DNA from: Bugula neritina
Lineage: Eukaryota > Animalia > Bryozoa
Assembly (NCBI GenBank): GCA_964035545.1
Contig: OZ037766.1
Span: 23,362,767-23,426,766 of the forward strand
DNA: 64,000 nt
Direction: 5' to 3'
The notes under the pieces are model-generated. The model saw only the letters and a program-made list of their open reading frames with translations, was not told the origin of the DNA and searched no databases. This document shows positions 12,482 through 61,600 of the stretch, one piece after another. A program made the translations under genes and the position numbers. Each line of letters starts with the position of its first letter. The first letter of the stretch is position 1.

Positions 12482-12586
12482 CTAAGGGAACAACATGGTA
12501 CATCGGTTTCGCCACAAAATAAGTCACCGGATCCTCCAACCCATCAACAAGCTCTGGAAGAGTGACGGGTTCATTGGCAACTACAT
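12482..12586 (-). CDS. Highly conserved 105-nt exon of paralog B (DVVANEPVTLPELVDGLEDPVTYFVAKPMYHVVPL)
   Basis: ttcag| ... |gttggt, phase 1-1; only 2 differences in 105 nt from each of the copies in D and E. Confidence 0.85.
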
Positions 12587-15500: not shown

Positions 15501-17339
15501 AGTACAAGGATGATCACAGAATTTGAGACCCTCAGATTGCTCATAGTTGGCATCAATTTGAACATTAGTCGATGGCGTGGCTGATGGCTGTGAAGAGCTC
15601 TTTGAAAAGTCATCAACTTCAAACAGCTTTGCCACTTGATCCACAGAGAGACAAGTATTGTCAAAGTTGCATTGTAATGCTTGTCTTTTGCTAGCCATTA
15701 CGTTGGCTCAGGTTAGTGCAATTTCAAGAAGGCTATTTAACCAAGTATAAACTTAGTACAATCAAAGTTTTTCAAAATAGAAACAGTCTGTATTAGCTGC
15801 CTGCAAAAAAATATACAATATGCAAAATATTAGTAATTCTTTACACGGCATTACTCAACTAACTTCAAAGCGAAAACACAAATAAAATATATTCTGAAAC
15901 TATTGCAAATTAAAACGAATAAAAAACAGGCACTGACAGTTATTATTTACTGCATTTAGCATGTGAGCATTTGGTTTTAGAAATTAGTAAAATTCGTGTT
16001 CAGTCAACATATACTTAAAATGAAATTGTAAAACTTTTAAGTTTAATGAAATTGTGACTCCCGGATAAAATAATTGTGATAATACCAGTTACCTCAAGAA
16101 AGTACCACTAGGCAGTAAATATTCGCAATGTATGCAGATACAAATTGTAATATCATTCATTTCTGTTCAGGTTCAAATAGCGAGCTTAGGAATAAGCATC
16201 AATCAACATAAAATTATTCAGGTTCATCCTCCAACAATGAATGACATCATCTGTTTATGGCTTTGCATTATATAAAAATGTTTGAGATATTTTATGCAAA
16301 ACTATGCTAGAAATTTATCCAGTCTATCCAAAAATCGTCTTGCAGAGTTTTGCAATAAAATTTTTTAACATGACTTGGTATCTACAGAAGCTGATTTTGT
16401 TAGGAATTTATTCTATGCTGATTTGTTGTAGGGTTGACCGGGTCACAATAGTCGTAGATGTTAAAAAAGCGGTCAAATGGTAAAAGAAATTATTGACTTG
16501 GAGTTGTGAGTTTAGCTTTAACAAAAAGGCAATGACATAACTTTTCAGCCATTCAATTTACAACACTTGCAATGCACACATGTTGGAGAGGTAAATAAAA
16601 ATTTGTTTTTACCCACAGTTTGTAAATTTTTAAGATGTCGTTAAGGCTTTGTAATATTTTACACTTAAGGGTGACAAGCCTAGTTTTTCTTGATTTTGCT
16701 GCCATTGCTTGTCTTCCAATTTCTAAGCTAATATATTAACAGATTCTAAAACAAGTTATTCTTGGGCTACATTTATTTTCAATTGGGCCACACGAGGTAC
16801 AATGGGCCTTGCTGATAGGGGCACAATCTATCCACAACTGGCTTGTTAATCTTGTAAAATATTAAAGACATCATAGTGAGACTACGAAAACACAAGGTTA
16901 GGATGCCTTAATATATATATCTGGTGAAGTTATAACTCTGCCTTTTCATACATCATATACAAAGCCTTCTGCTGTAGCCAATAATGTATAATCACGGTAT
17001 CCACTGTACGTTACATCATTCAGGGAATATACACTAAAGCAACTTGTGGTTTGCTGATTTCACCCCCCCCCCTTCCGCATTCCAGCCTCAGACTTCAGAC
17101 GCCTTAGCTAGGCTGCAGTTCATTGAAAAAGTCTACTTGGAATTTTGTAGCACATGTTACTGAAGTATTTTCTGATGAAAGTTCTTCACAGTATAGTTAA
17201 AAACAATTTTTGAGCTGCAGGTACCGTGCTGATGTTTGCATTGTTTTCAAATAAAAATTTAGTACCAGTAAAATACAATCTCACCATTTGTGCTAGACTG
17301 AAAATTTAGAACTATCTTGTACATCTTTTTTCCCAAAGC

Positions 17340-20300
17340 AAGATTTTTAGAATTTGCATTTTTCATCTTTTTGCAAAGTTATCGACAAAAAAAATGCTCA
17401 TTTTTGGTCAAATTTGTCTAAAAAGCTGACTTTTCAATGTCAGTAAACAGCAAACAATGATATTTGGATCAACATTGCGCTGTCTGAAGGCTGAGATATT
17501 TTTACAGTGCAACTTTTTTCCCTTAAATTTTTGCTGCATGTGGAAATTTACAATTTATGCTTGTCCCAATTTAAGTGAAGAGTTATATGCAGCAATATAT
17601 TTATGCTTATATGCATACAATTTATTTATACTTACTTGAAAGCAAGAAGTTGCAAAAAATTTAAAAAAAATTATACATTGTTTTAAAGTTATTTTTCAAT
17701 TTTTTTGTTTCTTATGCGATAGTTTTACATATAAAATATACTGAATATGAAACTAAATAAAATTTATTTACCTAAGGCAAATAAACGACAATATTTACAC
17801 AGCTTTTGGGGTAAAAATCCTTTGCACAAATAGCCTACAAAAATCTTTATTTTGTTTAACTTTTAGGCAACAGATACTGCAATAATGGCAAAGTAATGAC
17901 TGGATTGCAAGTTATTTTCACTGGTATTTCTACAATGCAATTTTCAAAAGTAAAAAAAACACACACAAATGTAGTTCAGTATAAGATGTTTTATAAACTT
18001 TACCAACGGATCACTATAGAACAAAATGGCTAAGGTTGAAGAAACTTTGACACTGGTGAGATTTCAACATTTTAATGCACGACGAACTACTTTATTACAA
18101 ACCATAATATTAATAAAACAGTTTCATCAAAAGCCGCAAGATAAGTTTCAGCAATGCTTCTGAATACAGATAGATCAGTAGCCATACGTGAGGAAGGTCG
18201 AGTAGATGCATGATCCAGATCAGAACAGTTACTTGGTAAGTCCAGGTTTGAATCTACGAAATAATTTTAAAATATTTTAGCATAACTGTTTCAGATTAGT
18301 GAATTTATGTATATAATAACTGCTAACCGTGCAACTGGATTGCTGTGAAATGTTTACACTTTCTATTTTAGCCTCGAAACAAACATGACTAAGCGGAGAC
18401 TTGACTAAATTCTGTTTAATTGGTACAAGGAAAGCAATTCTTCATTGAACATATAATGAGAAGATATTTTAAACTTCTGCTTTTTGGAGAGTGAATCTGT
18501 AACTTGAAGAAATTGCTCAGTAAGCCCATCTATGACTTGCATCGGAAGAACTGACAAATGTTTTGTCGATTCATGAGCCTTTTCTTTGCAGACAACTTGA
18601 TTAGAGACAGATGAGCATAACTGCATGGAATCAATCACACTGCTACTGATTTCGAAAACATCACATTTCCTGACAAATCTTTCGGCTCTTCATTGCTGTT
18701 TCAACAATCTGAACTAAATTCTAAGAAGTCTGAAAAATCTTTGTATTTTGCATTTTCAAACAGATCATGAGCGTTTATGTTGGTTTCTTTTTCATTGGTC
18801 CGGTTGTTTGAGACCTCCATTATTCCAGTTGCTATACGTTTGGCCAACTTCTAATTTTTTTTGATCGGACACCCAACATGTCAGTTCTAATCGCATTACC
18901 TGTTTAGCTAGTCTTAAGGAAAAATTAGTTTCCTTATTGAGTAATAAATTTGACTTCTTTTGCTAGGAACCTAAACCAGTTGGCTCAAGCTGCTTTACGT
19001 TGCTAGCTAGTGTTGCAGGAAAATAGCATTCTAAATTATAAACAATTTATGTTTTTTCTTGATTAAACATCAAATCAGTTGACTCTAGTTGCATCACTTG
19101 TTTGGCTAAACTTGAAAAAAGTTGCTGTTTCTTAATTGGGCAATTTTTCTATACTCTTTTGCAAAGATACTAAATTATTTGGTTCATGTTGCATGTTGGC
19201 TAGCTAGGCTTTAAGAAAAGTTGCCTTTACTAGTAGGAACCTTCTTTAACCTTTCCTCATCAGACACCAAGCCGATTGAGTATTTCTGCAATGCAACTGC
19301 TATTAATAAAAAAACACATGCAAGGGTAGTTTAGAATAGGATGGATGTTTTATCAACTTGACCAACTTATCACTATAAAAAAAGGGCTAAATAAGCTGAA
19401 GAAACCTTAACACTGGTGAGGTCTCAACATTATAATGCACGACAAATTATTTATTGCAAACCCAAACATTAATAAAATAGTTTCATAAAAAAACTGCAAG
19501 ATAAATTTCAGCAAAGCTTCTGAATACAGATGGATTAATAGCTATACGCAAAGAAGGTCGAGTAGAAGCATGATTCTGATCAGGATACTTAATTTGTAAG
19601 TCCAAGTTTGAATCTACACAATAATTTTAGAAAATTTCAGCTAATCTGTTTGAGATTAGTGAATTTAAATATTTATTAATTGCTAATTCTAGTTATGTCA
19701 TCTAGAAAGTTTCCTTATTGAGTAATATTATATTTGTCTTCTTTTGCTCAGAACCCAAACCAGTTGGCTCAAGCTGCTTTACGTTGCTAGCTAGTGTGGC
19801 AGGAAAATACTGTTCTTTACTAGAAACAATTTCTAGCTTATTTTGATCAAACATCAAATCAGTTGACTCCAGTTGCATCACTTGTTTGGCTGAACTTCAA
19901 ACAGTTGCTGTTTCTTAATTGGGCAATTTCTTTATACTCTTTTGCAAAGATACTAAATCATTTGGTTCATGTTGCATGTTGGCTAGCTAGGCTTTGAGAA
20001 AAGTTGCCTTTACTAGTAGGAACCTTCTTTAACATTTCCTCATCAGACACCAAGCCGATTGAGTATTTCTGCAATGCAACTGCTAAAAATAAAAAAGAAC
20101 ACATGCAAGGGTAGTTTAGAATAGGATGTTTTAACAACTTGACCAACTTATCAATGTAAAAAAAGGCTAAAGCTGAAGAAACTTTAACACTGGTGAGGTT
20201 TCAACATTTTAATGCACGACGAATTATTTTTTGCAAACTCAAACATTAATAAACTCAAACATTAATAAAATAGTTTCATAAAAAACTGCAAGATAAATTT

Positions 20301-22731
20301 TAGCAAAGCTTTTGAATGCAGGCGGATTAATAGCTATATGTGAGGAAGGTCTAGTAGAAGAACGATCCAGATCAGGACACTTACTTTGTAAGTCCAAGTT
20401 TGAATCTACACAGTAATTTTGGAAAATTTCAGCGTTTCTGTTTAAGATTAGTGAATTTAAATATTTATTAATTGCTAATTCTAGTCATCTAGAAAGTTTC
20501 CTTATTGAGTAATATTATATTTGACTTTTTCTGCTTAGAACCCAAACCAGTTGGCTCAAGCTGCTTTACGTTGCTAGCTAGTGTTGCAGGAAAATACTAA
20601 TCTTTATGTTTTTTTATCAAACACCAAATCGGTTGACTTCAGCTGCATCACCTGTTTGGCTACACTTGAAAAAGTCGCTGTTTCTTAATTGGGCAATTTC
20701 TTCATACTCTTTTGCAAAGAAACTGAATTATTTGGTTCATGTTGCATGTTGGCTAGCTGGGCCTTGGCAAACGTTGCTTTTACTAGTAGGAAATTTCTTT
20801 AACGTTTCCTCATCAGACATCAAGTCAATTGACTCAAATTGCATGACATTTCGAGTTTGCTTTAATGAAAAGTTGTCTATTAATAATTGAACAACTTCTT
20901 AAACTTTCTTCTATTAGACGGGGAAAATTTCAGCATTCTTTTCGACAAATCTTTTGCTAGATTTGGAGAAACATAGGTTTTATCATTTAGAATTTTATTA
21001 AGCTTTTGTCACTTAAACACCAGCACATGTGACTCAGGCGCTAAGTTTAGGTGTAATTCTCTGGCATCATTTTCAATGATTGATCTATTAACCAATGCGA
21101 TTAAAAGTCAAAGAATTGTGATACCTCACTATTATTAGCCATTTCTGAAGCAATCTCCACCATTTTTTTAAAAGGATGCCTGGTTTGTCTTTGTCATTTT
21201 GAGAATTAGAGTGGGGCTCTTCACTCATACAATAGTAACAACACCAATTGAGACAATTATTAGAGCATTTACATGTAACTCTCTAGCATTAGATCAATAT
21301 TTTAGAATACCAGGAATCACATTATCTTTGGAGTAATCAACTGGTTCAATAGCCACATTGTTAGATTAATATATAGTAGTTGCTCACTGGAGCTTCAAGA
21401 TTCATGAGAGCGTTCACTCGGTTTGTTAAGGTTTATGTCTCTGGCCGTGTGTAGCTATATTAGCTATGCGGTGGCTAGTACGGCAACTTGTGGTAACACG
21501 CTAGTGTACATATCTGAGAGAATACTATCATAGGCTCAATTCACAATGCGCCACTATAAAACACATTTTGAGAATCACAAGTGTTTCCAACAATTGCTAT
21601 AAAACTTTTGAACGTTCATCATCCCATTCACAATCAGCTAGGTTAAGAGCTGAAGATAGAGTTTGATGACCGCGGGACGTTATGTGCTACCTCATCTTTT
21701 TATGCCTACTTTGGGCCACGTCAATACGCCAGCATCAAACATCTGTAAACTATGGTCAACCCTAATCATGGCATTATTTTGTACTTTTACTTCGTTGTAA
21801 TTTAATTCCAAATTATTGTTATAAATATACTTGTTCTGCGATGACAACCAGCACTGTTCTCTCTCAAATGTACTCACAAAGAGTTATGTTCTACCTTTGC
21901 AAAACACACTCATAACCCAAGGTTGTAGTAGCTCGTAAAACTAAACAATGGAGTTTCCAAAGCACCAATGCGTATATGGTCCTCTACATGTAATTTTCAG
22001 CATTGAACTCATATTTAAAAAGACTAAGAATTACAATAGTTTTCAAAAAATCAACTCTTTCAAAAATCACAATTATAAATCAAAAACCTTTTTAATAAGT
22101 AAATTATTCACTCTGTTGTTGTTTGTTTGAAAGCAGCAAAAGTGAATGATCCTTATAATAAACAACTAGGTCACTTCGATAAGTTGGAGATCAGAGTGTT
22201 TAAAAATAGAAACAATCTATATCAGCCGTCTGTAAATAAATATACAATATACAAAAGATTTGTGCAACTCTTTCCACAGCATTGCTCAACTAACTTTAAT
22301 GCAAAAACGCACAAAAAATATATTTTGTTCAATTATTGCAAACTAAAACAAATAAACAACAGGTGTTGTGGTATTTACACAGTTTATGTAAACTGAAATA
22401 GCCTTTTCTCGATGTTTTAGCTGATCAATTCATACTCTGTTTTTAAAAAAGATAGTCACTTCCTGTTTGATAAATTGTAGTGCTTGATTAAAATAATTTG
22501 AAGATAAAAAGTCCACTGATAAATGCTTGCTAAATAGACATCAAACGAATAAACAACAGGCACTGACAGGTATCGTCGACAGCATTTAGCATGTGAGCAC
22601 ACGGCTTTTGAACTTGTAAAAATCCATGTTCAGCCAACATAATTATACTAAAGATGCAATTGTTCAATTTTTAAGTTGTATAAAAAAGCTAACCCTAGAT
22701 ATTAGAATTGTAACAATTAATGCCATCCACC
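17340..22731 (-). pseudogene. Paralog C: decayed, 3'-truncated copy
   Basis: Acceptor region near 22230 homologous to 5306; giant-exon remnants with stops and indels; shares insertions with D; lacks the downstream small exons and joins B-upstream sequence near 17300. Confidence 0.75.
18930..20830. repeat. Local tandem multiplication (~785-bp period) within paralog C
   Basis: aaaccagttggctcaagctgctttacgttgctagctagtg recurs at about 18975, 19757 and 20545; the exon-like DSNLD block recurs at about 18130-18255, 19490-19615 and 20285-20407. Confidence 0.85.
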
Positions 22732-29265: not shown

Positions 29266-29620
29266 TGTGGTAAATTTATGTTGTGTGTGTGTGTCCTTTG
29301 TTGCCGAGATCGGTGCTTCGGTCCTCCGAAACACCGATATGCCGATTCTCGGCATATCGGAATACCGAAGTACCGAAATGCCGGATTCGGCATTTCGGAT
29401 TCCCGAAGTACCGATATTCGGTATTTCGGGCCTCCGATCTCGGCAAACAAAGGAATGTCTTTGTCCTGCATGTATATAAAAGCCAGCGAGTTCCAGTATA
29501 GTTCAGTCTACTACTGGAGCTCGCTGGATAAAGACCATTGATTCACTCGGACTATACTACAATAAAGATTATCTACATTTACCTTATTTCTCGCCTTGTT
29601 TCTCATACAAGCATGTAACA
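29266..29620 (+). mobile_element. Probable solo LTR with a multi-hairpin palindromic U3 region
   Basis: TG...CA ends, TATATAAAAG at about 29473, AATAAA at 29561; absent from the paralogous intron in E (about 41745). The TSD match is poor (gtat / gcac). Confidence 0.65.
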
Positions 29621-29761
29621 GCACTAGTTTCATTCACAATCCACAAAACTATCACAGTATTATGAAGGCTAATATAGACTGAAAAGTAGCTCATTAGTTG
29701 CAACAAAATTTAACTGAAGAGAATGGGATGTTTTTAAACAAGTTACAGAATGATCATATAG

Positions 29762-32700
29762 TATCGTGAATTTACGATTCACTATAATTAGTAGGTCCAC
29801 TTATTCAAAGCCACTTCACCAGGTTTATTAAAAATTGAATAGAATTTACTATTTACAAATTATACAGCAATAAAAATTATTAACACTAATGTACACGATT
29901 ACATAACAGAGAGTTATTTATACACAATTTTACATGATTAAGATCCAGTCCACTCTGTCGGCCAAGCCGCCTAACAAGTTTCCACTATACATTGGCAGCT
30001 CCGCCTACTACTAGTTGTTATCTTCATCCCATTGGTAGTCACGGTGGTACCATCATAACGACATGATGCTGACTGCATCATGTATCAGTCCGATATAAAG
30101 TTATCCTTTCGATATAAAAGCTAACCAAGCGGGAACACAATACTGAAACTCTTTACATCCTCCCCACCTATCAAAAAGTACACTCTTCTCAACTAGTACA
30201 TAATTGAAAAAGAATATATAATAAAAGATAATAATAAAACAGAATATAACATAATATAAGTACTCTACTAGTTTACAGCAATAATTACATAACGCACAAT
30301 ATATTTACATCATCGCCACCGAGAATGAGTATAAGTTGCTATCAGTCCAAGTAGGGAGAGACGGGGGGGGGGAGAGGAGAAGGAAAAGGTGAGTCAGTCG
30401 AGATGAGGTATGAAGAAGTCCGGGTCACCAAATTTTTTTGTTAGTCTTTCTTCAAGTCTCGTCTGTAATTGGTCAACTTAGCCGCCGCCCGCTTTTGTTC
30501 TTTACAGAGACAGGCCATACGTCTCTGTAGCTTCTTTATATCCATCAAAAGGGAGTAAAAAGAGACTAATCTGGAATAGTGCTTTCGTCAGTCGTGTCAC
30601 GGGTACCCCTCTTTTTTTTCTTTCGGTTACTATGTAGGATGGAGGTAGCTGTGGTCGGAGGGTGAGATCCTCCCTCTACTGTTCGTCCTGAGCGGGATAC
30701 TAGAACTCGGAGGGGCGGTGTAACTATCTCTGGAGTCGGTGCGGTCGATGTTGTATCTATAGTCGGGGGGAGGGTCAGTGTCAGAGTCACTCTCTACAGT
30801 TAGTCGGGTCGGGGGAAATTGAGTCATTAATGCTTGTCCTCTGTCCGGTGCAGTCACGTGAGGCAGTATAAGATCCCTAAACTCAGTGTAGGAGTCAGCA
30901 TCAACTTCATACAAATGTCCAGTATAACGGTTTTGTGTTCTTTGGTGTTGGAGTATGGCGTACCTGTAGAAGTGATAAACTCCACAGGGACAAAATGTCA
31001 CAGTAAAATGTTGGGGTACGTGGATCTTCAGTCGTTTCATGGTGGAGAAAGTCTGTCTACATTCGCTACATCGCCGTTTGTCATCAGTCCCTATAATGGC
31101 TTGTATGAGGGTTCCCGTCCGTCTAGTAGTCCAAGTCGTACGCCATAGTAATGCTTGTGGCAAATCAAGAAGTCGGTCAGTCGTCTTAGTTGGTTCAGTC
31201 ATGTCTACTTGCATTACAGTCTGTTCAGTCAGTGTAGTCGGTTGATCTGACACTGTTGACAAGTGAATGTCGGACAACATGTCCAACTCTGCCTCTGACA
31301 TGTTGTCCCATGTTGTAATAAAGGTATCTAGTAGAGCCTGTATCTCTGCGGATACAGATTCAGTCTCACCTGCAATAGAGTATTTAAATTTATCGTACTA
31401 ACTTTGAATCACTCTTTATGCATGGGACTCCCTTCTTCAGTGTGATACTGACACCTGAATCACACAGTCTATTAACCCACTGATCGCAAAATTAGCTGGG
31501 CCGACTCTCCCACTCTAGTCGTCAATGCATCGCCTGACATTAGGAGTTTCAACTTTATTGTTATGACAAAGCGAGACTGATATCGGCTACTAGAATAAAT
31601 TTTAATTAGGTAATAGAATTTCTAGTAAACTCACCCTCCAAAGCAGTTGCTGCATCAGCCATGACGTTTGCTGTCTGTTTATATAAGGCTCCTAGTAGCC
31701 AAGTTTATTTACTGCAAAAGACGTGCTGTCTGTTTGCTGGTTGTAATTGGAAAAAGCGCTCACAGCTAGAATGGTTATGTAACACCCTATGCCCTATTGA
31801 GTTAGCTTTGCTCTGCTGACCTTTTCTATTCGCCACTGGGCAGCATACTATCAATTACTTTGCCCCCCCAAACTTTTCTTTGCACATGTCGACATGCTAT
31901 AAAATGCTATGCATGTCGACCAAGTCGCACAAGAAGTCTCTCAAATAAGATGGTGGCGTCCTAGTACGTTGGCTACGTTTCAACTGTACTGGGTAATTTG
32001 CTGCTACTTGTGACTCTACCACCACGAGTGGTGTCACCAGTACGAGGAGGGGGGTCCACCAGTACGAGTGGTTCCCTCTCAGCTGCCTCTTCCTTGTGAA
32101 TTTGAGAAAATTCCATTTCATCCGGGGCGACAGGCGTGTCAGCCAGCTCCACTGGTGGCGGGGCCGGCTCAAACCAATCTTCCGGTGTGTCGGCCGCCTT
32201 CTCCTGGAGTAAGGTGTACTACTGTAAGCTCGCATGATTTGCAGCAGTACCAAGTCCCACTCTTCTTGGCTCTTACCAATAAGTAGGCTTCTCAGTGAGT
32301 CCCTTAGCATTCGGTTGTTCCGCTCAACAACCCCATCCCCTTACCGTCGTCCGACTCTGGTTTACCCATCACGTTTTACAGAGATCGCTCAAAAGTTGCG
32401 ACTGAAACTGGGCGCACTGATCAGAGTGTATTTGTTCCAGCAAGCCGAAATAACAAAATAGTTGCTGATCTTAGGCTCTGGCCACCGGGGGGGCTGACGC
32501 ATCTGGAATAGCCAGCGCATCAGTCCACCGCGTGAAATGGTCAGTTAACACCAGTATCCATTTATTACCTCCCACTCTCGTGGGCATGGGACCTACCAGA
32601 TCTACAGCAATTACCTGCCACAGACAACCGGCTTGGAGGCAGCGCCTCCCTGTGGTCTCAGTGGAGCGGCCATGCTTACTAGCTTGGCATACTTCACACT

Positions 32701-34235
32701 TCCGCAGCCGGAGTCGGACATCCCGGGTCATACCGGGCCAAAACCACTAGAGTTGAAGACACCTAATCACCCGCCCAGCTCCTGCATGAGCCTGCTTATA
32801 GGTGTCCCAGATCAACTCCCGCCACAGAGCAAAAGGACAGACTACCCTCACGCGTTCACGGCGATTTGTGCCGGTTGCCAACGTTATCGTTATTAAAGTC
32901 AATGTGGCACCTGTGTCGCTTCAGAAATGGCATGCCCAAGATGGCATCCTCCTTGAATTGACTGACAATAAAGTTGCCGCTGATCATCTGATCACAGACT
33001 GTGCGAAGTGCCCACCACTACCACAACTTCAGCATATGGGGCCCCGCCTGCCGTCGACAGCTGCCGGCGCCCTGGTGGGTCGCTCGACTGTCGACTGTTG
33101 GCGTAGTTGCCTGATTTCGGCTAACAGCTCGCGAACCAAGCTTGTGGTCAAGCTAGTAGGCTCGTCGGCTGCCGCCGTGGCGACATGTACAGTCGTCTTG
33201 ACCAACGACGTTGACGTCGACACGTCGTCGTCGGCCTTGACCTGCTGCACTGTTGTCTCAGGCTGTCACGTACCGTCGGTTTGAAAATAAGCATTTCCAA
33301 GCCTGAGAGCTTGCTCCATGGTCTCAACCTCAGCTGCCCACAGGTGTTGCTTCAGCCCTAGGGTGTTAACAGACTGGAGGAAAGCATCTAGTGCCAAAAT
33401 CTGCTGACCATTTGCAGGCAAGTCACCATAAGCGACTTGTGCTAGCCGTTCTACTACGGTTGCGTGCTCTCGGAAGGTTGTCTTAAGATTTCTCCTAAGT
33501 CTGAGCTCTCAATGCCTCAAAAATATTGCCGAAATCCTGGCTTATCCCATAGGGTTTAGCCGGCCCTGTCAGACACAACCGTAGCTGGATCAGAGTAACT
33601 CTGGCAGGTCATCGACAGATGGCGGCCACATCACTGAACTCAGTGATAAATTGCTCCACATCCTCTTCTTCTGAGAAGATGGGAGCATGTAAATGATACC
33701 TGTCCATAGGCAGCGCTGAGCCGCCTATGTCGTCCTCCATCGCTACCGGTTCCTGACCGGGTATGTCCTCGTCGCCGGCCATCTCTTACTCTCTGGCTAG
33801 GAGCATTTTCAACAAGAAGGATCTCACCGCTGCCATCACTGTTATGAATATACAATTCACTATTATTAGTGGGTCTACTTATTCAAAGCCACTTCACTAG
33901 GTTTATCACGAATTGAATAGAATTTATTATTTACAAATTATACAGCAATAAACGTTACTAACACTAATGTACACTATTACATAACAGAGAGTGATTTATA
34001 CACAACTTTACATGATTAAGATTCAATCCGCTCTGCCGGCCAAGCTGCCTAACAAGTTTCCACTATACATTGGCAGCTCTGCCCACTACTAGTTATTATC
34101 TTCATCCCATTGGTTGTCACGGTAGTGCCATCATAACGACATGATGCTGGCTGCATCATGTATCAGTCTGATATAGAGTTATCCTGTCGAAATAAAAGCT
34201 AACTAAGTGGGAACACAATACTAAAACTCTTTACG
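29762..34235 (-). mobile_element. Internally deleted Ty3/Gypsy LTR retrotransposon with an accessory zinc-finger gene
   Basis: 396-bp LTRs at 29762-30157 and 33840-34235 (about 88% identical over the first 200 bp counted); TSD ATAG; tRNA-Leu-type PBS TGATGGCAGCGGTG just inside 33840; PPT near 30158-30168. Gag remnant about 33780-33000; PR-RT-RH deleted; integrase remnant (VDLVGPMP, TDHFTRW) at 32890-32200. Confidence 0.92.
30630..31662 (-). CDS. Putative spliced accessory gene of the retrotransposon: exon 31662-31635, intron 31634-31370, exon 31369-30630; about 255 aa with a C2H2 zinc finger
   Basis: ATG GCT GAT GCA GCA ACT GCT TTG GAG G|gtgagt ... ttgcag|GT GAG ACT joins in frame to ORF 30630..31301. 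CSECRQTFSTMKRLKIHVPQH fits C-x2-C-x3-F-x5-L-x2-H-x3-H; a second C-x-C-x12-H module follows. Confidence 0.65.
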
Positions 34236-35074
34236 ATAGCTCTAAAAACTTTTTATTCAATTATAATGTGTGATGAATTCTGTGAACTAGTTTGATGGGA
34301 CAAAGGCTTAACAATATTAAAGTTTTGCATCTTGAAAAAGAAACTTTTCATCACCATTAGGATTTCATTCTTTTCAAATGCAAGTGAAAGTGCAATTGTT
34401 TTTTGGTTCACAAAATAAAACTATCAAAGCAACAACAGAATCGCATTTATATCCTAAATTGATGATACCCAAGGAAGCGTGCTTGAATAGTTTTCAAATT
34501 TACATAATAGAATTTTTAATTATAGAGAGTTCGTAAAAAACTTACTGCTAGAGACATTGTACCAGACAGATTGGAGAACTTGTTTCAAGCTGGATAAAGA
34601 AAATTTACGCCCAGCTTCTAAGTCATTGCCTTTGTGAGCGTGTAGTTCTGGAAACTTTGTAATAGTTGGTTCTTTGTTCTGCGGCTTTGACTGCAAATCA
34701 GCGCTACAAGTAAACTGCACGTGTAGTCCACATATTAATACATCCATTTACCATACAGATGAATGGTGCACAGACTGGGTGGTAACTAAAGCAAATAAGA
34801 CTGTCAGGTGTACAAGAAAACAATGTAGCTGGCTTTTCCAGTTGGACATCATGCTTTGTAAATAAAAAGTTGTTGAATCAGTATTACTATAAATTTGCAT
34901 AAGATTATAATTGACTGATCAGACAATTTATTTAAGCCAATATTTATGTTATGTTTATTATTCCCAAATATTCACAATATACTATTAGGCTGTGGTGTGC
35001 TGCTTAGTTATTATTTTACCTCGTTTATTTTTACTTTTACAAGAGTGACAATAAAGATACACCTTGGCCTAGGC

Positions 35075-40711: not shown

Positions 40712-42821
40712 CAGCTGTTGCATGCATTTCCTATTGTTACTAAAAAAAGTTGTCCAACTTCCAAATACATAATAGTCAGAAACTGCAGGTTTAGCCCAAA
40801 ATAGCCTGTAGAAGAGCTTAAGATGTTTCTCATACTAGATTACACCGTGTGTGAATAATGGTTCACCTATGAAGTTAGATGGCAAAAGTTCTGGTTGAAG
40901 TAATAAAAACTATACTTTGTATATTTCTGGCTCACCTAAGCCTTGTTATTTACACACTTTTGGCACTGCCACTTTGAGAATAATAAGTTGAAAAATTACT
41001 ATAACTATATGTTTCGTGTGCCCAGGTATATAGCAATCGATAAATGTTTTATGCTCTGGGCATATGATGTAAGCATTGCAATTTGTTTCATGAGAATAAT
41101 AAAAATATCATAAAAGCTTACTTTGACTACGTGGTTGAGCAAAATCTCCAAACAATACTTTCTGTATGTCGATCCTCGCTAAAAAAATCAACCAGAATTT
41201 AGGATAGTTCACAATGAAACATATCAACATGAAAACATAGCCATTGAAATTATCAACCAAAATATTAGAACTGTAATGAACCACATACCTAAAAAACCAA
41301 GTTTCAAACATAGACATTTTATGCTTATAGAAATTGGGTTACTCAACGAGAGTAAAAAAGTTTTGGTTATGTTACTGCAGCTAATCTTTTAAAGATGTAG
41401 TGTACAGAATACCAGGTTAGAAATGTTTGCAGTTTTCCTGCATACAAGTTTTTAAACATTTTCAATGCGTTGTGCTTGCCAAACGTCGTCAGAAACTTTT
41501 TAGATTAGTAATAGCATAAAATGACAGCGAAATTAACCAATTTGGATATCAAGGCAGCTACAGCAACAACATTTATTTCAAACATAAGTTACACAGCTAC
41601 AAAGTTACATAGAGTAATACATACAGAGGCAACTTTCGATGGCATGGGATGAACGAATCGATTCTTGGCGTTCACTTCGTGTGGCAAGCATATTTGTAAA
41701 CATAGTTTTACAATTGGCAGGAACTGCAGTAAAACATGACGCAGTATTAGAAAGACAAACATAGACTGAAAAGTAACACATTAATTGCAACAACATCTAT
41801 TTGAAGAGAATGGCATGATGTCAAACAAGGTACGGAATGATTATGCAGCTATGAAAAATATTTCATCAATCATACTGTGTGATAGATTCTTTGAACTAGT
41901 TTAATGGGTCCAAAGCTTCACAGTAGTAAAGTTTGGTGTGCAGCAAATGAAACTTTGTTATCACCATTAGAATTTGTAAATCTTTTCAAATGCCAGTGAA
42001 AGTGCAATTGTTTTAGGCTCACAGAACAGAACTATCAAGGCAACAATAGAGGTGCATTTATATGCAGGTAATTACATATTTGGTTATAGAAAGTTTGCAA
42101 GAAACTTACAGCTTGAGACATTGGACCAGCAAGAATGGAGAACTTGTTTCAATTTGGATGAAGAAGATTTACGGCCAGCTTCTAAGTCACTGCTTCTATG
42201 AGCGTGTAGTTCTGGAAACTTTGTAATATTCGGTTCTGTTTTCTGTCGCTTTGACTGCAACTTAGCTCTACAAATAGACTGCATGTGTAGTGGTTAAAGC
42301 AGTATGGCCTATTATTATGTTATATCTTGGCAGACCATTGGTGATATAGGAAATGGCATCATTAGAGCTCTAACTTACTTATCACAAGGTCAGCGGTTCT
42401 ATTTGCAATAAATACTACTAGGGATGTTAAGAAGGGCATTCAATCATGATCTCTTTTCTGTCAATATAGAAAACAAGTTCTTAACCAGTTTTAAAATACC
42501 CTTTCCATCAGGAGTTACCTCAGCAATGGTGATTATAAACCGATATAAGTTATCTTCATTTAAACAGACTACTCACCAGCTTAAAACATAAAGATATTTC
42601 CCTAAAGCACTTACTCAGTAAAGGTTGGTCTACGGAAACAATCTTCATTTATAGACTCATCTTTCAGACTCTCAAACGGCACTTTAACTATGCAACAGAA
42701 GAAATAATATAATTGCCAAATTGACATTGAATATATTCTGAGCATTTGTTTCAATGATCGCAAAGTAAAATGAAATTATTGCTCAAGTTTGCTTCCAAAC
42801 TTTTATAGTGCATAATGAACC

Positions 42822-45800
42822 TGTTGTATTATAATGTACTCGCTATAATGTTACGCTTTTATTAGGTCAAGGTTACCTTCAGTTTGAATAAAGTTATCGC
42901 CATGTTAAATACAATACTTGCTCGTGTTCATTAACAAAATATAATCTACTTCATCCGCAACCATAATATTACATGGTAGCCAGTACATGTTGCTGAAACC
43001 AAGTTAAAGTTATTAGCTATTTTATATTTACAAAGTTAAAGTGTGTTTTATCGCTATGGCTAAGTTTAACCCCCCTAAAGAGTTCGACTTTGATCCGTCT
43101 GGCTGGGCTGAATGGTTTGCTCGCTGGAGTCGTTATAGGACACTGTCAAAACTCAATCAAGAAGAAGAACAGTTGCAAGTTGACAGCTTTCTCTATTGTA
43201 TGGGAAATAAAAGCGAGAGCATTTTCAATGGTTTAGCACTGTCGGATGAAGATGTTAAAAACTATCAAAAAGTATCTGAAGCTTTTCAGAAGTATTTCTC
43301 TCCACGTAAGTACGTGATTTATGAAAGAGCTCGTTTCTTCAGGCGCTGCCAACAACAAGGAGAAACCGTTGAACAGTATGTTAGGTCTCTAAATGACATA
43401 GCAGATAGGTGTGATTTTTCCAATAGATCAGAGCAAATGCGAGACAGAATTGTAGTAGGAATCACAGACACTAACTGCAGTCATGAAATGCAGAAAATGA
43501 ATGTTGAAGACCTAACTGAAGAGGTTGCCATAAATATGGCTAGACAATTTGAGCAAGTAGACAAAAACATTAAGGACTTGACAGAAAGTCATACTCAGGG
43601 TAGTACTAGTAGTACTTCGGTAGATGCTGTCTCTAAATTCAGTAGTAGTGGTAGTCACACAAACAAGTCTCAGAAGCACAGTTCTAGGAATAATAGTACT
43701 AAGCAAACTAATAACTCTACTCCATGTGGTCGATGTGGTTATGTAAACCACACAAGAGGTACATGCCCTGCAAAAGATTGTAAGTGTAAGCGCTGTGGTA
43801 AACTCGGACACTACGCAAAAATGTGTAAATCTAAGCCTGCCAGTCAAGTTCAGCAAGTTGAAGAAGAGGACAGCGTATTTCTTGGTGAGATAGCTGAGAG
43901 TAACGTCGGAGTGTGGACCAAGACTATTATTGTAGACAAGCTTGACTTTCCAGTTCAGTTCAAACTCGATACTGGCGCAGATGTCTCCATACTTCCTCAA
44001 AGGCTATGTTCTAATGTGCTATTAGTAAAGACTAAGAAGCAGTTTTTAGGCCCAGGTAACACTAAGATACCAGTTGTAGGCTGTTTTAATGCTAAGCTTT
44101 CTGTAGACAATGTTACTCACACTGAAACTATTCATGTTGTAAACCAAACAAAAGCCTTGCTAAGTCGTAATGCTTGTGTTAAGCTAGGGTTAATTTCTTG
44201 TAAGTGTGATGTAGACTCTGTTACTAATGTTACTGACAACTCTGTATTTTGTAGAGAATTCCCAAAACTTTTTAGTGGTCTAGGTAAAATGAATCATACC
44301 GTAGGTATAGAGTTGCGTTCTGAGTGCAAACCATTTGCTATTAACACCCCTCGTTCGGTCCCCTACCCCTTGTTGTCTAGTGTTAAGCAAGAGTTGAGTG
44401 ATATGGTTGCTAAAGGAGTAATTTCTCCAGTCAGTGAGCCCACAGATTGGTGAGCTCCCATGGTTGTAGTCCCCAAGGCTAATCGCAAGGTGAGGATCTG
44501 TGCTGATTACACTGAGTTGAACAAAGTTGTTCGTAGAGAAGTGCACCCCATGGCTCATGTTGAGTCAAGTCTCGCCAAGCTTGGCAATGGTAACTTTTTT
44601 ACAGTACTCGATGCTAACTCAGGTTTCTATCAGATTCCTCTCTCCCCCAAAGCTAAAATGTTGACTACATTCTTGTCTCCTTTTGGTAGGTTTGCCTTTA
44701 ACCGTTTACCTTTTGGGTTGTCCTCTAGTCCAGAATTGTACTGCAAAATTGTTTCACAGGTTCTGGAAGGTTTGGATGGTGTTGTCTGTCACATGGACGA
44801 TGTTTGCATTTGGGGTAAATCTCAAGAAGAACATGATAGTCGTGTTCGTGCTGTTTTGCGTAGGATGGTTGACGCTGGTATGACTCTAAATGTTGAAAAA
44901 TGTAAGTTCTCTTGTAGCAGTATCAAGTTTCTTGGTCATGTCATATCCTCTTCTGGCATTCGTGCTAATCCCGATGCAATCCAGGGCATAGAAAGTTTTG
45001 CCACTCCAACTTGTGTCAAGGATGTTTGTAGTTTCCTTGGAATGGCTAATCAGCTTAGCAAGTTCTCCACCAGGTTAGGTGAACTCAGTGCTCCCTTGCG
45101 TGAGCTTCTTCATAAAAACACTCTTTGGATTTGGGATGTTGCTCAAAAACAAGCCTTCTGTGACATCAAGAAAGAGTTACAACGCTGTGTTGAACTCGCT
45201 CCCTATAGTCCCCAGCGTGAAACAGTTATTCACACTGATGCTTCTCAATGTGGTATAGGTGCTGCTCTGTTCCAATATCAAGACAATGGCGAGCTACGCC
45301 TAGTCTGTGCTGCTTCTCGTGCGCTCAGTGAGACAGAGAAGAGGTATGCTACCATAGAGCAAGAAGCTTTAGCAGTTGTTTGGGCTTGTGAAAAGTTTAG
45401 GGATTATATTGTTGGTCTTAGAGTGGTTATCAAAACTGATCACAAACCTTTAGTTCCCCTCTTAAATGATATTGAGCTTGACAAGAACCCTGCACGTATT
45501 CAGAGGTTTAGAATGCGTCTCATGAGGTTCCAATATCACGTGGAACACATTTCTGGAAAGAAGAATGTTATTGCAGATGCCCTTTCTCGTTCTGTAGGTC
45601 CCATTAGTGAGGCTGATGTTATGTTTATGGAAGAAGTAGAGCTTTTTGCTGTGTCAGCATTGCATAATACTGCCACTTCTCCTCGTTTGAAAGAGTTGAA
45701 AGTTCAACAAGAGAATGATGAGGTCTTATCTCGTGTTCTCCAATATGTTAGGTCTGGTTGGCCCACATATTTGCCTTCTCATGAAATTTTGTTGCGCCCC

Positions 45801-47203
45801 TATTTTGAATGTAGGTCTAGGCTCTCTACGATTGAAGATATTTTAGTTCTTGACAGTCGCATTGTTATTCCCCATGCCGAACGTCTAGCTGTGCTTGACA
45901 AAATCCACAGTGGCCACCTTGGCATCACCAAATGTAGGTCTCGAGCTGCACAGTCAGTCTGGTGGCCCAATATGTCCCAGCAAATTGCGGAGATGGTTAA
46001 AAAATGTGAGTCCTGTAGGAAGGAGTCAAATGTCCAACAATCTCCACTCCTTCGTTCTGAGTTTCCTAGTCGTCCTTGGGAAAAACTAGGCAGTGACTTG
46101 TTCTATTTTGACAGTAAGTGGTTCTTGCTAGTAGTCGATTACTATTCTCGTTTTATCGAAGTTGCGTTGTTGGAGGATCTCACCAGTTCTAAGGTTATAC
46201 TCCATTTGAAGAGCATATTTGCTCGACATGGTGTCCCAGAGGTCCTGATTTCTGACAATGGTGTGCAATATGCTTCAGAAGAATTTAAATCCTTCGCCCG
46301 AAAGTTTGGTTTTACCCATGTTACCAGTTCTCCTAAACACCCTCAGGGAAATGGTGCAGCTGAACGAGCTGTTCAGACTGTTAAAAACATTCTGAAGAAA
46401 GGACAAGATTCGTATTTAGGGTTAATGGCTTATAGGTCTTCACCGTTGGAAAATGGTGTCTCTCCAGCTGAGTTGTTGATGGGTCGGAAACTGCGCACTA
46501 CGGTGCCTTCTTTGCCATCAGTGTTGGCCCCAAAGCAGCCCGATGTAGAACGGGTTAAGCAAAAAGAAGCTCATGCTAGAGCTCAGAGCAAAGATACATT
46601 TGACTTAAGACATCGAGTTGTGGTCCCTCCATCGTTAAGTCCTGGTGATAGAGTTCATGTGCGTGATCTGAATCGTGATGCTGAAGTTGTTAGTACTTTC
46701 CCTGCAAGGCCCCGATCGATTGTTGTTAAAAGTACTAATGGTGTCCCACTCAGACGCAATGTTACCAACCTAGTGCCATTACAAACTACTGAGTTGTCTG
46801 ATGACAATAATGTCGCTAAAAAGTCTAGTTTTGGTAGAACTATTAAACCTAGACAGATTTTGGATTTGTAAATAGACTATGTGCTGTGTTTGTTTTCATT
46901 TTATTATGTATTGTATTGCCATTGTGTTTGTTTTTACCAGTGTACTAAAATGTCTCTGTGTATCATCAATATGTTTCCAATGTGTGTTTTCTGCTGTATT
47001 ACAATTTTGTGTAGTCTCCCCATCTTTTATTATTGTCTTAAGAAAGGGAGGTGTTGTATTATAATGTATTCGCTATAATGTTACGCTTTTATTAGGTCAA
47101 GGTTACCTTCAGTTTGAATAAAGTTATCGCCATGTTAAATACAATACTTGCTCGTGTTCATTAACAAAATATAATCCACTTCATCCGCAACCATAATATT
47201 ACA
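42822..47203 (+). mobile_element. Full-length young Ty3/Gypsy retrotransposon (Mag / K02A2.6-like), antisense within an intron of paralog E
   Basis: 152-bp LTRs at 42822-42973 and 47052-47203 (150/152 identical); TSD GAACC; PBS TGGTAGCCAGTAC (12/13 match to the tRNA-Ile(AAU) 3' end as I recall it); PPT AAGAAAGGGAGG. Confidence 0.97.
43056..46871 (+). pseudogene. Single-frame gag-pol (two CCHC knuckles, protease, RT, RNase H, integrase) with one nonsense codon at 44451-44453
   Basis: CGRCGYVNHTRGTC and CKRCGKLGHYAKMC, KLDTGADVS, HMDD, TDAS/DHKPL, HSGH..CESC, DYYSR/SDNG/AERAV. ORFs 43041..44453 and 44460..46871 share a frame; DW*APMVVVPK corresponds to the usual DWCAPMVVVPK. Confidence 0.95.
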
Positions 47204-47772: not shown

Positions 47773-48289
47773 CTGAATTAAAACATGAATTAGATACTTC
47801 AAAACTTTATGCAATGAATCAGACTGAATCAAGGTTTTTTCAGTTAACAAAATATTTTGCGCAAATTACACTATAAATCATATTATGGCCACAGAAAAAA
47901 ATACAAAAAGTGTGCATGTGACTTGCACAACATAAACATATAAACTGACTATATCATCTGCAATGCAAGTTTAAACCTTTTGCATTTGGAAATTAACACT
48001 TTACGCTTGTCTCAATTCGACTGGATTTTTATATAAAAATACCTATAAAGTAAAATGAACACCTAAAAAAGTACTTCAATATGGGGTGTTTTTTAAACTT
48101 GACTACTAGACCATTTTCGGAGGCCTACAGTCCCTCATTAGAAATGAGAGCTATAGCAAATTGTGTGAACAAATGTTGCAAAACACGTCTTTACTTACCG
48201 GCAGAAGTGACATAATCCTTCTTAAGTGCTAATAAATTCTGAGGCACTTTTCTGTAATGTGAAGATTTGATCAGATCACTCTCATCATG

Positions 48290-58668: not shown

Positions 58669-61600
58669 TGTAGTGAATTTCTCACCAGGTATTTACGTTA
58701 TAACCAGGCTATTATTTACAAGATACAAGAATTGAATTACTACTAACATGAATTGTGCGATTACATAACACTGAGCACTTTGCACACAACTACTCTAAGC
58801 GAAGTCCCAAGCTGCTCTGCCCGGCTAGCTACTCAGCGTGCTTCCACTACGCGTAGCTAGCTCCACCTGCTATCAATTAACAGTCCTTCCTGATTGGCTG
58901 GTATTAGTGGTGCCACTGTCGACTGTAAGATGTACGTCGGCTGGGATTCGATGTAGTCAACCTCCACAATAAGATAACATAGAGTCGACCCTTTCGATAT
59001 ATAAACTAATTGTTAATTGCACTACTGAAATCACTTACACTCGCCACACCTATCGAAAGGTACACTCTATGATTAATTCCTGCATGGCAACATTATAAAA
59101 TAGAAAGGTTTAAAAAGTAGACAAGAATAAAAGAACACAAAATAACACCAGAATAACATAGTCAAATTGATTTACATAACAGTAACAAGACGAACGATTA
59201 ATGGCCCGTCGACAGGGTCGATGTGTCTCTCGCCCGATCATGTAAAGGGAGCATGAACATAGGAGGGGAAAAGGGTGGACTATATCACACTCACATAGTC
59301 TGAACCAAGCAATTGGTGGTGTCGAGAAGCCACCAGAAGAATCAAGCGTGGCAAAGGAATCTCCCCAAAGAGGGGGAGAAAGGGGGGGTCGACTGGTCTC
59401 TTTCTAGAGGGTAGTGTCGAACACCAACAGTCCACACTGATCACCGTCAAATTCCCAAAGGGGAATACAAAGTTTCTTCATCTATGCTTTCGTCTTTACT
59501 TATTAATTTTCATGCAGGATTCTTTTAATATTACGTATTACATTTATTACTTCTTATTATTACGATTTGCTCCCTCTTTTCAGCATTATTATGTCGTCGC
59601 TACGGCGAAAAGAGAGAAGAACTCCTCTGTCTGATCGCATCCACTGCACCTCACTGTTGTAGGGCACCATCTGCCACGACAGTCACCAGAACTGCTGCTA
59701 TGGCGCTGCAGGAATCCAGTCAAGCAGTCAGAATCTCAGTCGACGAATAATGCAATGAATGATGGGTGACTGCGTGACGGTGGTGCCAGGAGAAAGAATA
59801 TGCTCCGCCATCAAAGTCTCACCTGCAACAGAATGCCAGAAACTGTTGAAGGGGTTTTCACCTAGTCAGTACGACACCTCGACTGAGTCTCGCAATCTAC
59901 TAACCACTGATTATTGTTAAATCACGCGGTCGACTGCCTCACTCAAAGTCGTCAGTGAAATCACCTGACTTGGAAAACCAGCTTTACCGTTATGATAAAG
60001 CGAGACTGATTTAAAGCTACCAGCTTGAATTCTACTTAAATAATAGAATTATACTAGTAGACTTACCATAAGATAGCCACGACATTAGTCTGCTGCCCAC
60101 TTAGGCCTCGTAGTACGCTAGCTTGCCGGGTACGTGCGCGTACGTTGGCAGTTGAATTAGAAAAGAACGCTCTTCACAGTGAAAGTGATTACATAATACC
60201 CCTTTCACTAGCGAGCTGGCTTCGCTCTTTTCTTTACCCCCGGTGGTGTTATCATGATATATATTTACACCACTGGGTAGGCAACTCACAGTTGTGTCTC
60301 CTTGTATTTCGGAAACACAACTCTCAATTGCTCGACACCCCAGATTTCTTTTATGATAGCTGATGGATGTTTTTCCACTGCATCACACAAGAAATCTTTT
60401 AAATAAGATGGAGGCGCCCTAGTGCGTTGCCTACGCTCCAACTGCACTGGGGAATTTGCTACTACTGGTGACTCTCCCACCACGGGTGGTGTCGCCAGTA
60501 CGGGGGATCCACCAGTACGGGTGGTCCTCTCCCAGCTGCCTCTTCCTCATGACTTTGCGGAATTTCCATTTCTTCCGGGGCGATAGGCCTGTCGGCCGGC
60601 TCCACTGGTGGTGGGGCCGGCTCAGACAGGTCTTCCGGTGTGTCGGCCTCCTTCTCCTGGGATGGAGGTGGCCGAGGCAAGTCGGGCGACGCGTCGGCCG
60701 CCCCGTCCTGATCTTGCAGTATCTCCTCTATCTCTCTATACGCCATGCCTCGCCCCCTCATAGGAGGGGGTCTAGCAGGCTCTAAGAGAGGAGGTGCTTG
60801 ACCTGCTGCATCAGGACTCGCCCAGCAAGATTTCAGCCGTGCTTCGTTCTGGACCGACACTTGTCCAGACCGTTCCACTTTATAGGTGTGATTAGCCATC
60901 ACCTCAATCACGCAGTACGAACTTCCGCTGCAACTTAGCCGCCTGTCCGCGCCGCCGGCGATGACTGGTCATCCAGACCCAGTCTCCCACCTTATACAAG
61001 AGGGGGTCATCAGAGTCACCACTCCTGACCTGCCATTGCTGCTTACGTAGCACCTCGTGAGCCGTCCCCATGCGTTTTACAAGCTCATCCACGTAGTCGT
61101 GGACGTTGCTCTCGGGAGCCGGAACATGATAGGTTACGTGCTCAGGAACCCTGGTTTCTCTCCCCAGCATGAGAAAATTAGGGGTCTCCAGTGTACTGGA
61201 GTGAGAGGTACTACGGTAAGCTCGCATGATTTGTGGCAGCACCAAGTCTCACTCTTCCTGGCTCCTACCGATAAGCAGGCTTCTCAGTGAGTCCCCTAGC
61301 ATTCGATAGTTCCGCTCCACAACCCCGTTCCCTTGCGGGTGATACGGGGTCGTCCGACTCTGGTTTACCCCCCCCCATTTTACAGAGATCGCTCATAAGT
61401 TGCGACTGAAACTGGGCGCCTTGATCAGAGTGTATCTGCTCCGGCAAGCCGAAATAGCAGAATACCTGCTGATCCAAGGCTCTGGCCACCGAGGGGGCCG
61501 ATGCATCTGGAATAGCCAGTGCATCAGCCCACCGCGTGAAATGGTCAGGTAATACCAGTATCCAGTTGTTACCTCTCACTGTTGTGGGCATGGGGCCTAC

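What the first reader, a model, noticed from the sequence alone, without database searches (positions are those of the whole stretch)
30630..31800. Gypsy retrotransposon carrying its own intron-containing C2H2 zinc-finger gene in the env position
Seen: between the integrase end (about 31900) and the 3' LTR, on the same strand as pol, lie a TATATAAA (31685-31678), a 28-nt ATG mini-exon, a 265-nt GT-AG intron and a 740-nt exon. They splice in frame to about 255 aa with an acidic N-terminus, a textbook C2H2 finger (31070-31008) and a second C-x-C-x12-H module whose last ligand may have been Cys (CGT is one transition from TGT). A neighbouring frame (30566..30790), reachable by one frameshift near a G run, holds a basic RKKKKR NLS-like patch. 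The ORF is open although gag and integrase of this copy are broken. Established: this slot normally holds env or nothing, and retrotransposition should purge sense-strand introns unless the genomic RNA escapes splicing. Inference: an element-encoded nuclear regulator (trans-activator or anti-silencing factor) expressed from a subgenomic transcript. Caveat: the TATA lies only 15 nt from the ATG, so both may not be used together.
Basis: partly seen in the sequence, partly recalled or inferred. Interest (0 to 1): 0.85.

Follow-up and report, generated by a model that had tools for sequence, protein, structure and literature searches.

The report
Gypsy element's spliced zinc-finger regulator gene
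A Gypsy jumping gene in an animal (likely a bryozoan) carries, right after its integrase, its own intron-containing gene for a two-zinc-finger protein that likely acts in the nucleus to switch the element on; distant relatives carry the same module fused to their integrase, and this particular copy is broken.

Summary
The anatomy is real: 28-nt ATG exon, 265-nt GT-AG intron and zinc-finger exon lie between the integrase tail and the 3' LTR of a 4.47-kb deleted Gypsy element. The splice is corroborated: 3 of 9 informative homologous ORFs have exon 1 joined exactly to exon 2, 6 keep the intron, and a contig skips exactly the 265 nt (short side). The module belongs to the element lineage: whole Gypsy Pol proteins end in it, and a sister element in the window keeps the intron but another cargo. 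142 relatives at 50% clustering; none of those scanned reaches a Pfam cut-off for the module. One claim fails: the ORF is not intact here. Relatives run about 280-330 aa through a basic patch and a predicted coiled coil; this copy changes frame three times and lacks a zinc ligand. The TATA is too close to the ATG. Best reading: a likely DNA-binding trans-activator (0.5); CERV/Rev-like export and integrase tethering are rivals. No RNA was seen. The scan earlier noted an analogous Cys/His ORF in a protist Gypsy. New variant; interest 0.62.

The parts
34236..34239 (-). target-site duplication, upstream copy (4 bp)
   Evidence: same 4-mer at 29758-29761; both flanks match one contiguous paralogous stretch at 41742-42012
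33840..34235 (-). 5' LTR (396 nt)
   Evidence: 91% identical to the 3' LTR over 390 nt; 26 transitions, 9 transversions, K2P 0.097
33821..33838 (-). primer-binding-site-like sequence
   Evidence: position directly behind the LTR; likeness to a tRNA-Leu 3' end is recalled, not tested
33000..33782 (-). gag remnant, several stops and a frame change
   Evidence: three-frame reading; no Pfam hit; gag identity inferred from position and a Cys/His knuckle remnant
31900..32972 (-). pol remnant: protease scrap, integrase with internal deletion, integrase C-terminal tail; RT and RNase H deleted
   Evidence: Pfam Integrase_H2C2 E 3.6e-6; tblastn with whole Pol P0184/P0185
31663..31899 (-). non-coding spacer, candidate internal promoter; holds a 12-nt direct repeat (31735-31724, 31680-31669) and the TATA-like 8-mer 31685-31678
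   Evidence: 63% identical to the sister element's spacer, z 7.0; repeat D7, found nowhere else in the window; promoter role untested
31635..31662 (-). exon 1, ATG mini-exon (9 codons + 1 nt)
   Evidence: 6-7 of 9 residues identical in three natural joined ORFs; ATG and donor also in the sister element
31370..31634 (-). phase-1 GT-AG intron, 265 nt
   Evidence: contig joint skipping 265 nt with these ends; 70% identical to the sister element's 244-nt intron, z 14.7
30433..31369 (-). exon 2 coding region as defined by relatives; in this copy broken by frame changes near 30780, 30555 and 30470
31263..31310 (-). acidic-hydrophobic motif, candidate activation domain
   Evidence: conserved island in a variable N-terminus; such windows upstream of the fingers in 17 of 47 relatives against 4.8 in shuffles
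31008..31070 (-). finger 1, C2H2
   Evidence: Pfam zf-C2H2_4 E 0.024, under cut-off; ligands kept in 90% or more of distant relatives
30927..30992 (-). finger 2, C-x-C-x12-H-x5-C type; fourth ligand lost in this copy
30608..30625 (-). basic patch (NLS-like), off the 255-aa frame in this copy
   Evidence: basic patch in 22 of 23 hand-picked long homologues
30433..30554 (-). remnant of the C-terminal long helix (predicted coiled coil)
   Evidence: tblastn E 1e-10 to 4e-12; helix 238-280 in the model of relative P0015
30158..30172 (-). polypurine tract
   Evidence: sequence
29762..30157 (-). 3' LTR (396 nt)
29758..29761 (-). target-site duplication, downstream copy
59823..60085 (-). sister Gypsy element: homologous ATG mini-exon (19 nt) and 244-nt GT-AG intron in the same slot, followed by unrelated sequence

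Best explanation
This is an accessory gene of a Gypsy (Ty3/Gypsy) lineage, sitting between integrase and 3' LTR, whose spliced message encodes a two-zinc-finger protein that likely works as a nuclear, DNA-binding trans-activator of the element; the copy in this window is dead. Shown: position, intron, both joined and intron-bearing forms in the family, conserved ligands, Pol fusions in distant relatives, decay of this copy. Predicted: one compact two-finger domain, a basic nuclear signal and a C-terminal coiled coil. Inferred: the module began as (or is also made as) a Pol C-terminal extension; in this branch stop codons cut it from pol and it gained its own ATG exon and intron, so it needs a subgenomic RNA, from an internal start in the spacer or by splicing from the 5' leader. 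The acidic motif would recruit co-activators, the fingers would bind the LTR or internal promoter, the coil would dimerise. Genomic RNA that is spliced before packaging would give the intron-less copies.
For: Splice: 14 stored proteins cover the exon-2 start; 3 begin with the exon-1 peptide joined to exon 2, 6 show the intron's 3' end read in frame, 5 are uninformative; contig joint 31364/31630 skips 265 nt with the intron's ends, and a second joint ends at the same donor boundary. Element link: 2 of 7987 long candidates hit, both RT-RNase H-integrase polyproteins ending in the module, E 2e-25 and 3.5e-5; a second member of the first cluster has it too; their RT region is 48-65% identical to the window's sister element; 3 further ORFs carry the integrase-tail motif in frame upstream (3 of 19 long N-termini, shuffles 0.04). 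Constraint: column identity 0.81 over residues 65-200 against 0.57 over 23-64 in 25 close relatives, p 2e-7; Cys/His kept at 25-45% overall identity. Fold: pLDDT 92.6, pTM 0.82 for the core of relative P0187; best structural neighbours are DNA-binding tandem C2H2 proteins, weakly (Z 3.9 or less), and by sequence profile (E 5e-7 to 1e-3). Activation-like motif upstream in 17 of 47, shuffles 4.8, 0 of 300 as high; downstream 4 of 63, 10 of 300 as high. No membrane segment (max 19-residue hydropathy under 1.0 in 23 of 23); export-signal-like motifs not above shuffles (5 of 23 against 4.3).
Against: No RNA, no binding or reporter data. The genomic context of the close homologues was not seen (four locus scans found nothing), and it is unknown whether the three joined ORFs come from DNA or RNA assemblies. 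The exact-intron joint rests on one contig with a 24-letter short side, marked 'between: not known', under the tool's own caution. Differences between this copy and others in exon 2 are 11 synonymous to 16 non-synonymous, p 0.03-0.17 by transition weight: weak (only the 27 exon rows among the 40 shown of 223). The acidic-motif rule was set after seeing the sequences and relatives are not independent. C2H2 fingers also bind RNA and protein; the finger-1 helix is basic and little varied. No motif shared by LTR and spacer above shuffles. The TATA does not fit the ATG. The sister element replicated with a similar integrase and no trace of the module, so it is not essential.
Confidence: 0.5

Rival explanations
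1. A CERV/Rev-like factor: the protein binds a structured element in the unspliced genomic RNA, possibly in this intron, and lets it leave the nucleus; that would also explain why the intron persists.
For: Cer1 CERV sits in the same slot, comes from a spliced mRNA, has a Cys finger and a leucine zipper and is needed for gRNA export (PMC10309623). The intron is better kept between the two elements (70%) than spacer (63%) or LTR (59%); the sister intron folds at z -5.7 and 40 of 80 mapped pairs recur in this intron's centroid.
Against: This intron folds at only z -1.6; pol windows of the sister element reach z -4 to -7.4 too; changed pairs keep pairing 16 of 33 times against 13.0 expected, p 0.16; paired sites are hardly better kept than unpaired (122/163 against 49/72); no relevant Rfam match; no export-signal excess; the best-folding intron belongs to the element that lacks the protein.
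Confidence: 0.2
2. An integration-targeting or chromatin-tethering module, the counterpart of the chromovirus chromodomain: fused to integrase in some lineages, supplied in trans in this one.
For: In-frame fusion behind the integrase tail in P0184, P0198, P0185 and probably P0090, P0110, P0114, in at least two separate supported clades of the domain tree.
Against: The fusions have 190-470 residues of low-complexity linker with the same acidic motif, so they may be processed or separately translated; here pol and the gene are parted by 13-18 stops per frame. No insertion-site data.
Confidence: 0.15
3. An anti-silencing factor that binds the element's DNA or host repressors rather than activating directly.
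For: Same anatomy (nuclear, DNA-binding-like, coil) fits; rapid diversification into 142 clusters fits conflict. The analogy to plant transposon anti-silencing proteins is recalled, not tested.
Against: No enzymatic or chromatin-reader domain found; the acidic-hydrophobic motif points to activation.
Confidence: 0.1
4. A captured host gene or nested insertion riding along without use to the element.
For: Annotated genes of Bugula neritina (KAF6037488.1, KAF6040923.1) and Watersipora subatra (XP_067940963.1/4.1) carry the domain; an intron suits capture at DNA level.
Against: No bracketing direct or terminal inverted repeats; spacer and intron are shared with a sister element; Pol fusions exist; the annotated genes fall at several places among unnamed rows, not as one group; constraint is seen among multi-copy relatives. 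Direction of transfer was not tested with a rooted tree.
Confidence: 0.05

Closest known systems
CERV of Cer1 (C. elegans Gypsy element; PMC10309623, abstract, passages and section 15 read)
   Same: Non-env ORF between pol and 3' LTR, spliced mRNA, nuclear, Cys finger plus coiled coil/zipper, regulates its own element.
   Different: CERV is 517 aa with a G-protein-like domain and a C4 loop and has no homologue outside Caenorhabditis by that paper; this protein is about 300 aa with C2H2 + C2HC fingers and an acidic motif, has its own ATG exon behind pol, and occurs as a Pol fusion. No direct sequence comparison with CERV was run.
Foamy virus Tas/Bel from the internal promoter (PMC7828637, figure legends only; mechanism otherwise recalled)
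   Same: Accessory trans-activator gene just before the 3' LTR, tied to an internal promoter.
   Different: Retrovirus with env; no zinc-finger homology known to me; promoter use here untested.
Non-env ORF3s of bdelloid LTR retrotransposons (PMC5408684, passages)
   Same: Family-specific, exchangeable cargo in the ORF3 slot, described as separate spliced units; here two sister elements share the intron but not the cargo.
   Different: Rotifer cargos are GDSL esterase, DEDDy exonuclease, TM or coiled-coil proteins; the word 'zinc' does not occur in that text.
Tor3b/4b elements of Oikopleura (PMC4402516, passages)
   Same: ORF3 transcribed from an internal promoter in pol or in the spacer behind pol.
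   Different: Their ORF3 is a membrane Env and those RNAs showed no splicing.
Chromoviruses (chromodomain at the integrase C-terminus; named in PMC6338049 part 1, otherwise recalled)
   Same: Extra domain at the end of Pol, as in P0184/P0185.
   Different: Different domain; long linker; split off as a spliced gene in this branch.
Tandem C2H2 transcription factors (Kaiso, SALL, CTCF, ZBTB)
   Same: Finger 1 and the finger pair superpose over about 50-57 residues (Z up to 3.9, rmsd 2.3-3.9).
   Different: No TGEKP linker, C-x-C second finger, extra helices before and after that pack into one 120-residue domain with no match at Z 5 or more among 48,161 chains.

Membership tests
Ty3/Gypsy LTR retrotransposon | Paired LTRs, PBS, PPT, short TSD | tested here: met
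Ty3/Gypsy LTR retrotransposon | pol order PR-RT-RH-IN | tested here: met
   RT/RH deleted in this copy; PR scrap precedes IN; full order in the sister element (IN about 85% identical) and in P0184/P0185
Named Gypsy clade (GyDB/Repbase) | RT phylogeny with reference elements | not testable with these tools
   no reference RT set available
Errantivirus / env-bearing Gypsy | ORF3 with signal peptide, transmembrane anchor and fusion-protein fold | tested here: not met
   max 19-residue hydropathy under 1.0 in 23 of 23 long homologues and 0.89 here; predicted zinc-finger fold
Classical C2H2 zinc-finger protein | C-x2-C-x12-H-x3-H finger with F and L core | tested here: met
   finger 1 pattern, though below Pfam cut-off
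Classical C2H2 zinc-finger protein | Tandem array with TGEKP-type linkers | tested here: not met
   5-residue linker and C-x-C second finger
CERV (Cer1) | Spliced non-env ORF between pol and 3' LTR | tested here: met
CERV (Cer1) | H, M (C4 loop) and G domains | tested here: inconclusive
   model shows no G-protein-like domain and no Caenorhabditis name among 30 clusters looked up; no direct comparison with CERV
CERV / Rev-like export factor | Needed for export of unspliced RNA; binds a structured element | not testable with these tools
   intron structure only a lead
Tas-like trans-activator | Binds and activates LTR and internal promoter | not testable with these tools
   anatomy fits; no shared LTR/spacer motif
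Nested transposon insertion | Own TSD or terminal repeats around the segment | tested here: not met
   slot shared with sister element

The most novel reading that the evidence does not exclude
A widespread, uncatalogued two-finger domain is a mobile regulatory module of an invertebrate Gypsy lineage: carried as a Pol C-terminal extension in some branches, split off in bryozoan elements into a spliced expression cassette (ATG mini-exon plus conserved intron) whose cargo can be swapped, and acting as the element's own transcription factor. That would make these LTR retrotransposons 'complex' in the retroviral sense and a source of new host zinc-finger genes (Bugula, Watersipora).
Probability: 0.3. 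Interest if true: 0.85.

Novelty: new variant of a known kind. Interest (0 to 1): 0.62.

Why it matters
Self-encoded regulators are the mark of complex retroviruses and, in the papers found here, only CERV is a worked-out case in a Gypsy element. A second, unrelated solution with transcription-factor anatomy, seen both fused to integrase and as a separate spliced gene, makes it testable how accessory genes arise from Pol tails, how a sense-strand intron survives retrotransposition (intron-bearing and intron-less forms coexist), and whether retroelements seed host zinc-finger genes. The claim that it is not in print rests only on ten searches of an open-access library; Repbase, GyDB and subscription journals were not searched.

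Tried and rejected
No whole genome is held. Locus scans for relatives found none: metagenomes twice, viral contigs, prokaryote genomes; alignment A4 was too loose to scan. Sequencing runs: one holder, kind unknown, no RNA holder listed; not evidence on expression. Summed contig depth is higher over the gene than over unique flanks and highest over integrase, but the tool says it is no copy number. ESM Atlas: unnamed hypothetical clusters at 0.95 and generic C2H2 sets, leads only. Foldseek against PDB and viral models: no match at E 0.001; VIA on the whole model returned only coiled coils, on the core nothing at Z 5. Homodimer prediction: no answer, score 0.02, alignment not used. Rfam: one sub-threshold hit on the other strand over pol, dismissed. 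Intron covariation not significant; differences to other copies that return to the sister element's letter are not independent support. No strong acceptor passed my pyrimidine filter upstream of exon 1, so double splicing from the leader is neither shown nor excluded; three donor-like sites lie near the gag start. Shared LTR/spacer words not above shuffles. Domain trees (104 rows, 123 columns; 30 near-identical close homologues, cluster duplicates, P0161, P0185 and rows without the full motif left out) resolve the window's clade (8 rows, 99/98) but not the deep forks; no root, no donor test. Paper searches with no or no relevant hit: (0 papers). Supplements were not read and may list such ORFs (notably PMC13524379).

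Full report
Observation. On the minus strand lies a 4,474-nt element, 34235-29762, with 396-nt LTRs 91% alike (K2P 0.097), a PBS-like site, a polypurine tract and a 4-bp target duplication; both flanks match one contiguous paralogous stretch. gag is broken, RT and RNase H are deleted and integrase is partly deleted.

The gene is real. Exon 2 finds 35 homologues among 174 candidates, mostly 57-81% identical, from JGI and ENA assemblies, and 142 among the 50%-cluster representatives. Of 30 clusters looked up, three carried a species name, all bryozoan: Bugula neritina twice and Watersipora subatra; the host is therefore likely a bryozoan, by inference only. Among 25 close relatives column identity is 0.81 over the finger domain and 0.57 over the N-terminal linker, and the Cys/His ligands persist at 25-45% identity. 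A direct nucleotide test was weak: 11 synonymous to 16 non-synonymous differences, p 0.03-0.17 (from the 40 of 223 rows shown).

The intron is real. Gene calls on unspliced assemblies give a natural test. Of 14 stored proteins that cover the start of exon 2, three begin with the exon-1 peptide (6-7 of 9 residues identical) joined directly to exon 2, six show the intron's end read in frame, five start too late to tell. Whether the three come from DNA or RNA is unknown; either needs splicing. In run X1, which looks like genomic DNA (unique flanks and introns covered) but is recorded as '?', one contig skips 265 nt with the intron's ends, a second stops at the same donor boundary, and another copy keeps the intron; the first has only 24 letters on its short side. 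The sister element at 59040-64000 keeps ATG, donor and acceptor and 70% of the intron.

This copy is not intact. Relatives run about 280-330 aa, through a basic patch (22 of 23 chosen long homologues) into a long helix (17 of 30 that reach that region by my motif count). Here the frame leaves the family's near 30780, again near 30555 and 30470, and finger 2 lacks the ligand kept by 29 of 29 close relatives. The contrast 'open ORF in a broken element' falls away. The TATA lies 23 nt before the ATG, so by the usual spacing (recalled) transcription would start at or behind the ATG; it is absent from the sister element. The ATG, not the TATA, is what is conserved.

It belongs to the element lineage. 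A profile search among long proteins returned two hits, both whole RT-RNase H-integrase polyproteins that end in this module; a second member of the first cluster does likewise. Their RT region is 48-65% identical to the sister element. Three more ORFs have the integrase-tail motif in frame upstream. Here 13-18 stops per frame part pol from exon 2. No repeats bracket the segment. The sister element has no trace of the module and an unrelated short cargo. The domain tree puts the window in a supported 8-row clade and the fusions elsewhere; deep forks are open. The context of the close homologues themselves was not seen.

Protein. Models of natural relatives give one confident 120-residue domain, helix-C2H2-C2HC-helices (pLDDT 92.6), disordered arms and a C-terminal helix. 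No Pfam family covers it at cut-off; structure searches find only partial likeness to tandem C2H2 DNA-binding proteins. There is no membrane segment, so it is not env. Acidic-hydrophobic windows of activation-domain type stand upstream of the fingers in 17 of 47 relatives against 4.8 in shuffles (rule set after inspection); export-signal-like motifs are not enriched.

Mechanism. Activation motif, two fingers, nuclear signal and coil are transcription-factor anatomy, so I commit to a trans-activator made from a subgenomic spliced RNA (0.5). The CERV-like export reading (0.2) has the best precedent (PMC10309623) and some support from intron conservation, but structure tests were not significant. 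Integrase tethering (0.15) rests on the fusions; anti-silencing 0.1; passenger 0.05. All functional steps are inferred.

Comparison and novelty. Non-env ORF3s, spliced ORF3 messages and internal promoters are in print (PMC10309623: abstract, passages, section 15; PMC5408684, PMC4402516, PMC13524379, PMC7828637: passages; PMC6338049: first quarter). None of the passages seen describes this domain; PMC13524379 has no 'zinc finger' or 'C2H2' in its main text and reports bryozoan env elements in another gene order. Ten searches found no report; Repbase, GyDB, closed journals and supplements were not seen. Verdict: a new variant of a known kind, real at family level, dead in this copy; interest 0.62.

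Noticed in passing
window 59040-64000 (-): Sister Gypsy element with RT, integrase about 85% identical, homologous ATG exon and intron, but an unrelated cargo: an 86-codon frame (59820-59563) with three stops, no Pfam hit. Suggests a cassette with exchangeable cargo, or recombination at the acceptor.
   Followed up: partly
P0182, P0181/P0040, P0176: P0182 departs from its genomic twins exactly before the G-E-T exon start and there carries about 65 residues closely like the N-terminus of the Bugula gene KAF6037488.1, whose finger part is another paralogue: possibly a host exon spliced into element acceptors.
   Followed up: partly
P0179 (Watersipora), P0204 (Bugula), P0052: Proteins with two copies of the domain, two of them annotated host genes: candidates for domestication.
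   Followed up: no
window 59823-60066 (-): The sister intron folds into a long rod (z -5.7); several pol windows of that element fold as strongly (z to -7.4 near 60800-60430).
   Followed up: partly
window about 42800-47200 (+): A third, distant Gypsy element with long gag-PR and RT-IN frames (43017-44453, 44454-46871) and 152-nt direct repeats 98.7% alike; no trace of the finger module.
   Followed up: partly
window 48191-57160 (-), 1-5200 and 12000-21400: Giant repetitive open frames (2199 and 789 aa, 243-246-nt and 99-nt repeat units) present in several diverged copies in the window; the 789-aa frame has no Pfam hit.
   Followed up: no
window 41742-42012: Uninterrupted paralogue of the insertion site; the element landed in another repeat.
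   Followed up: yes
window 29320-29440: GC-rich palindromic repeat beside the 3' flank, very deeply covered by contigs of run X1; probably a MITE-like repeat.
   Followed up: no
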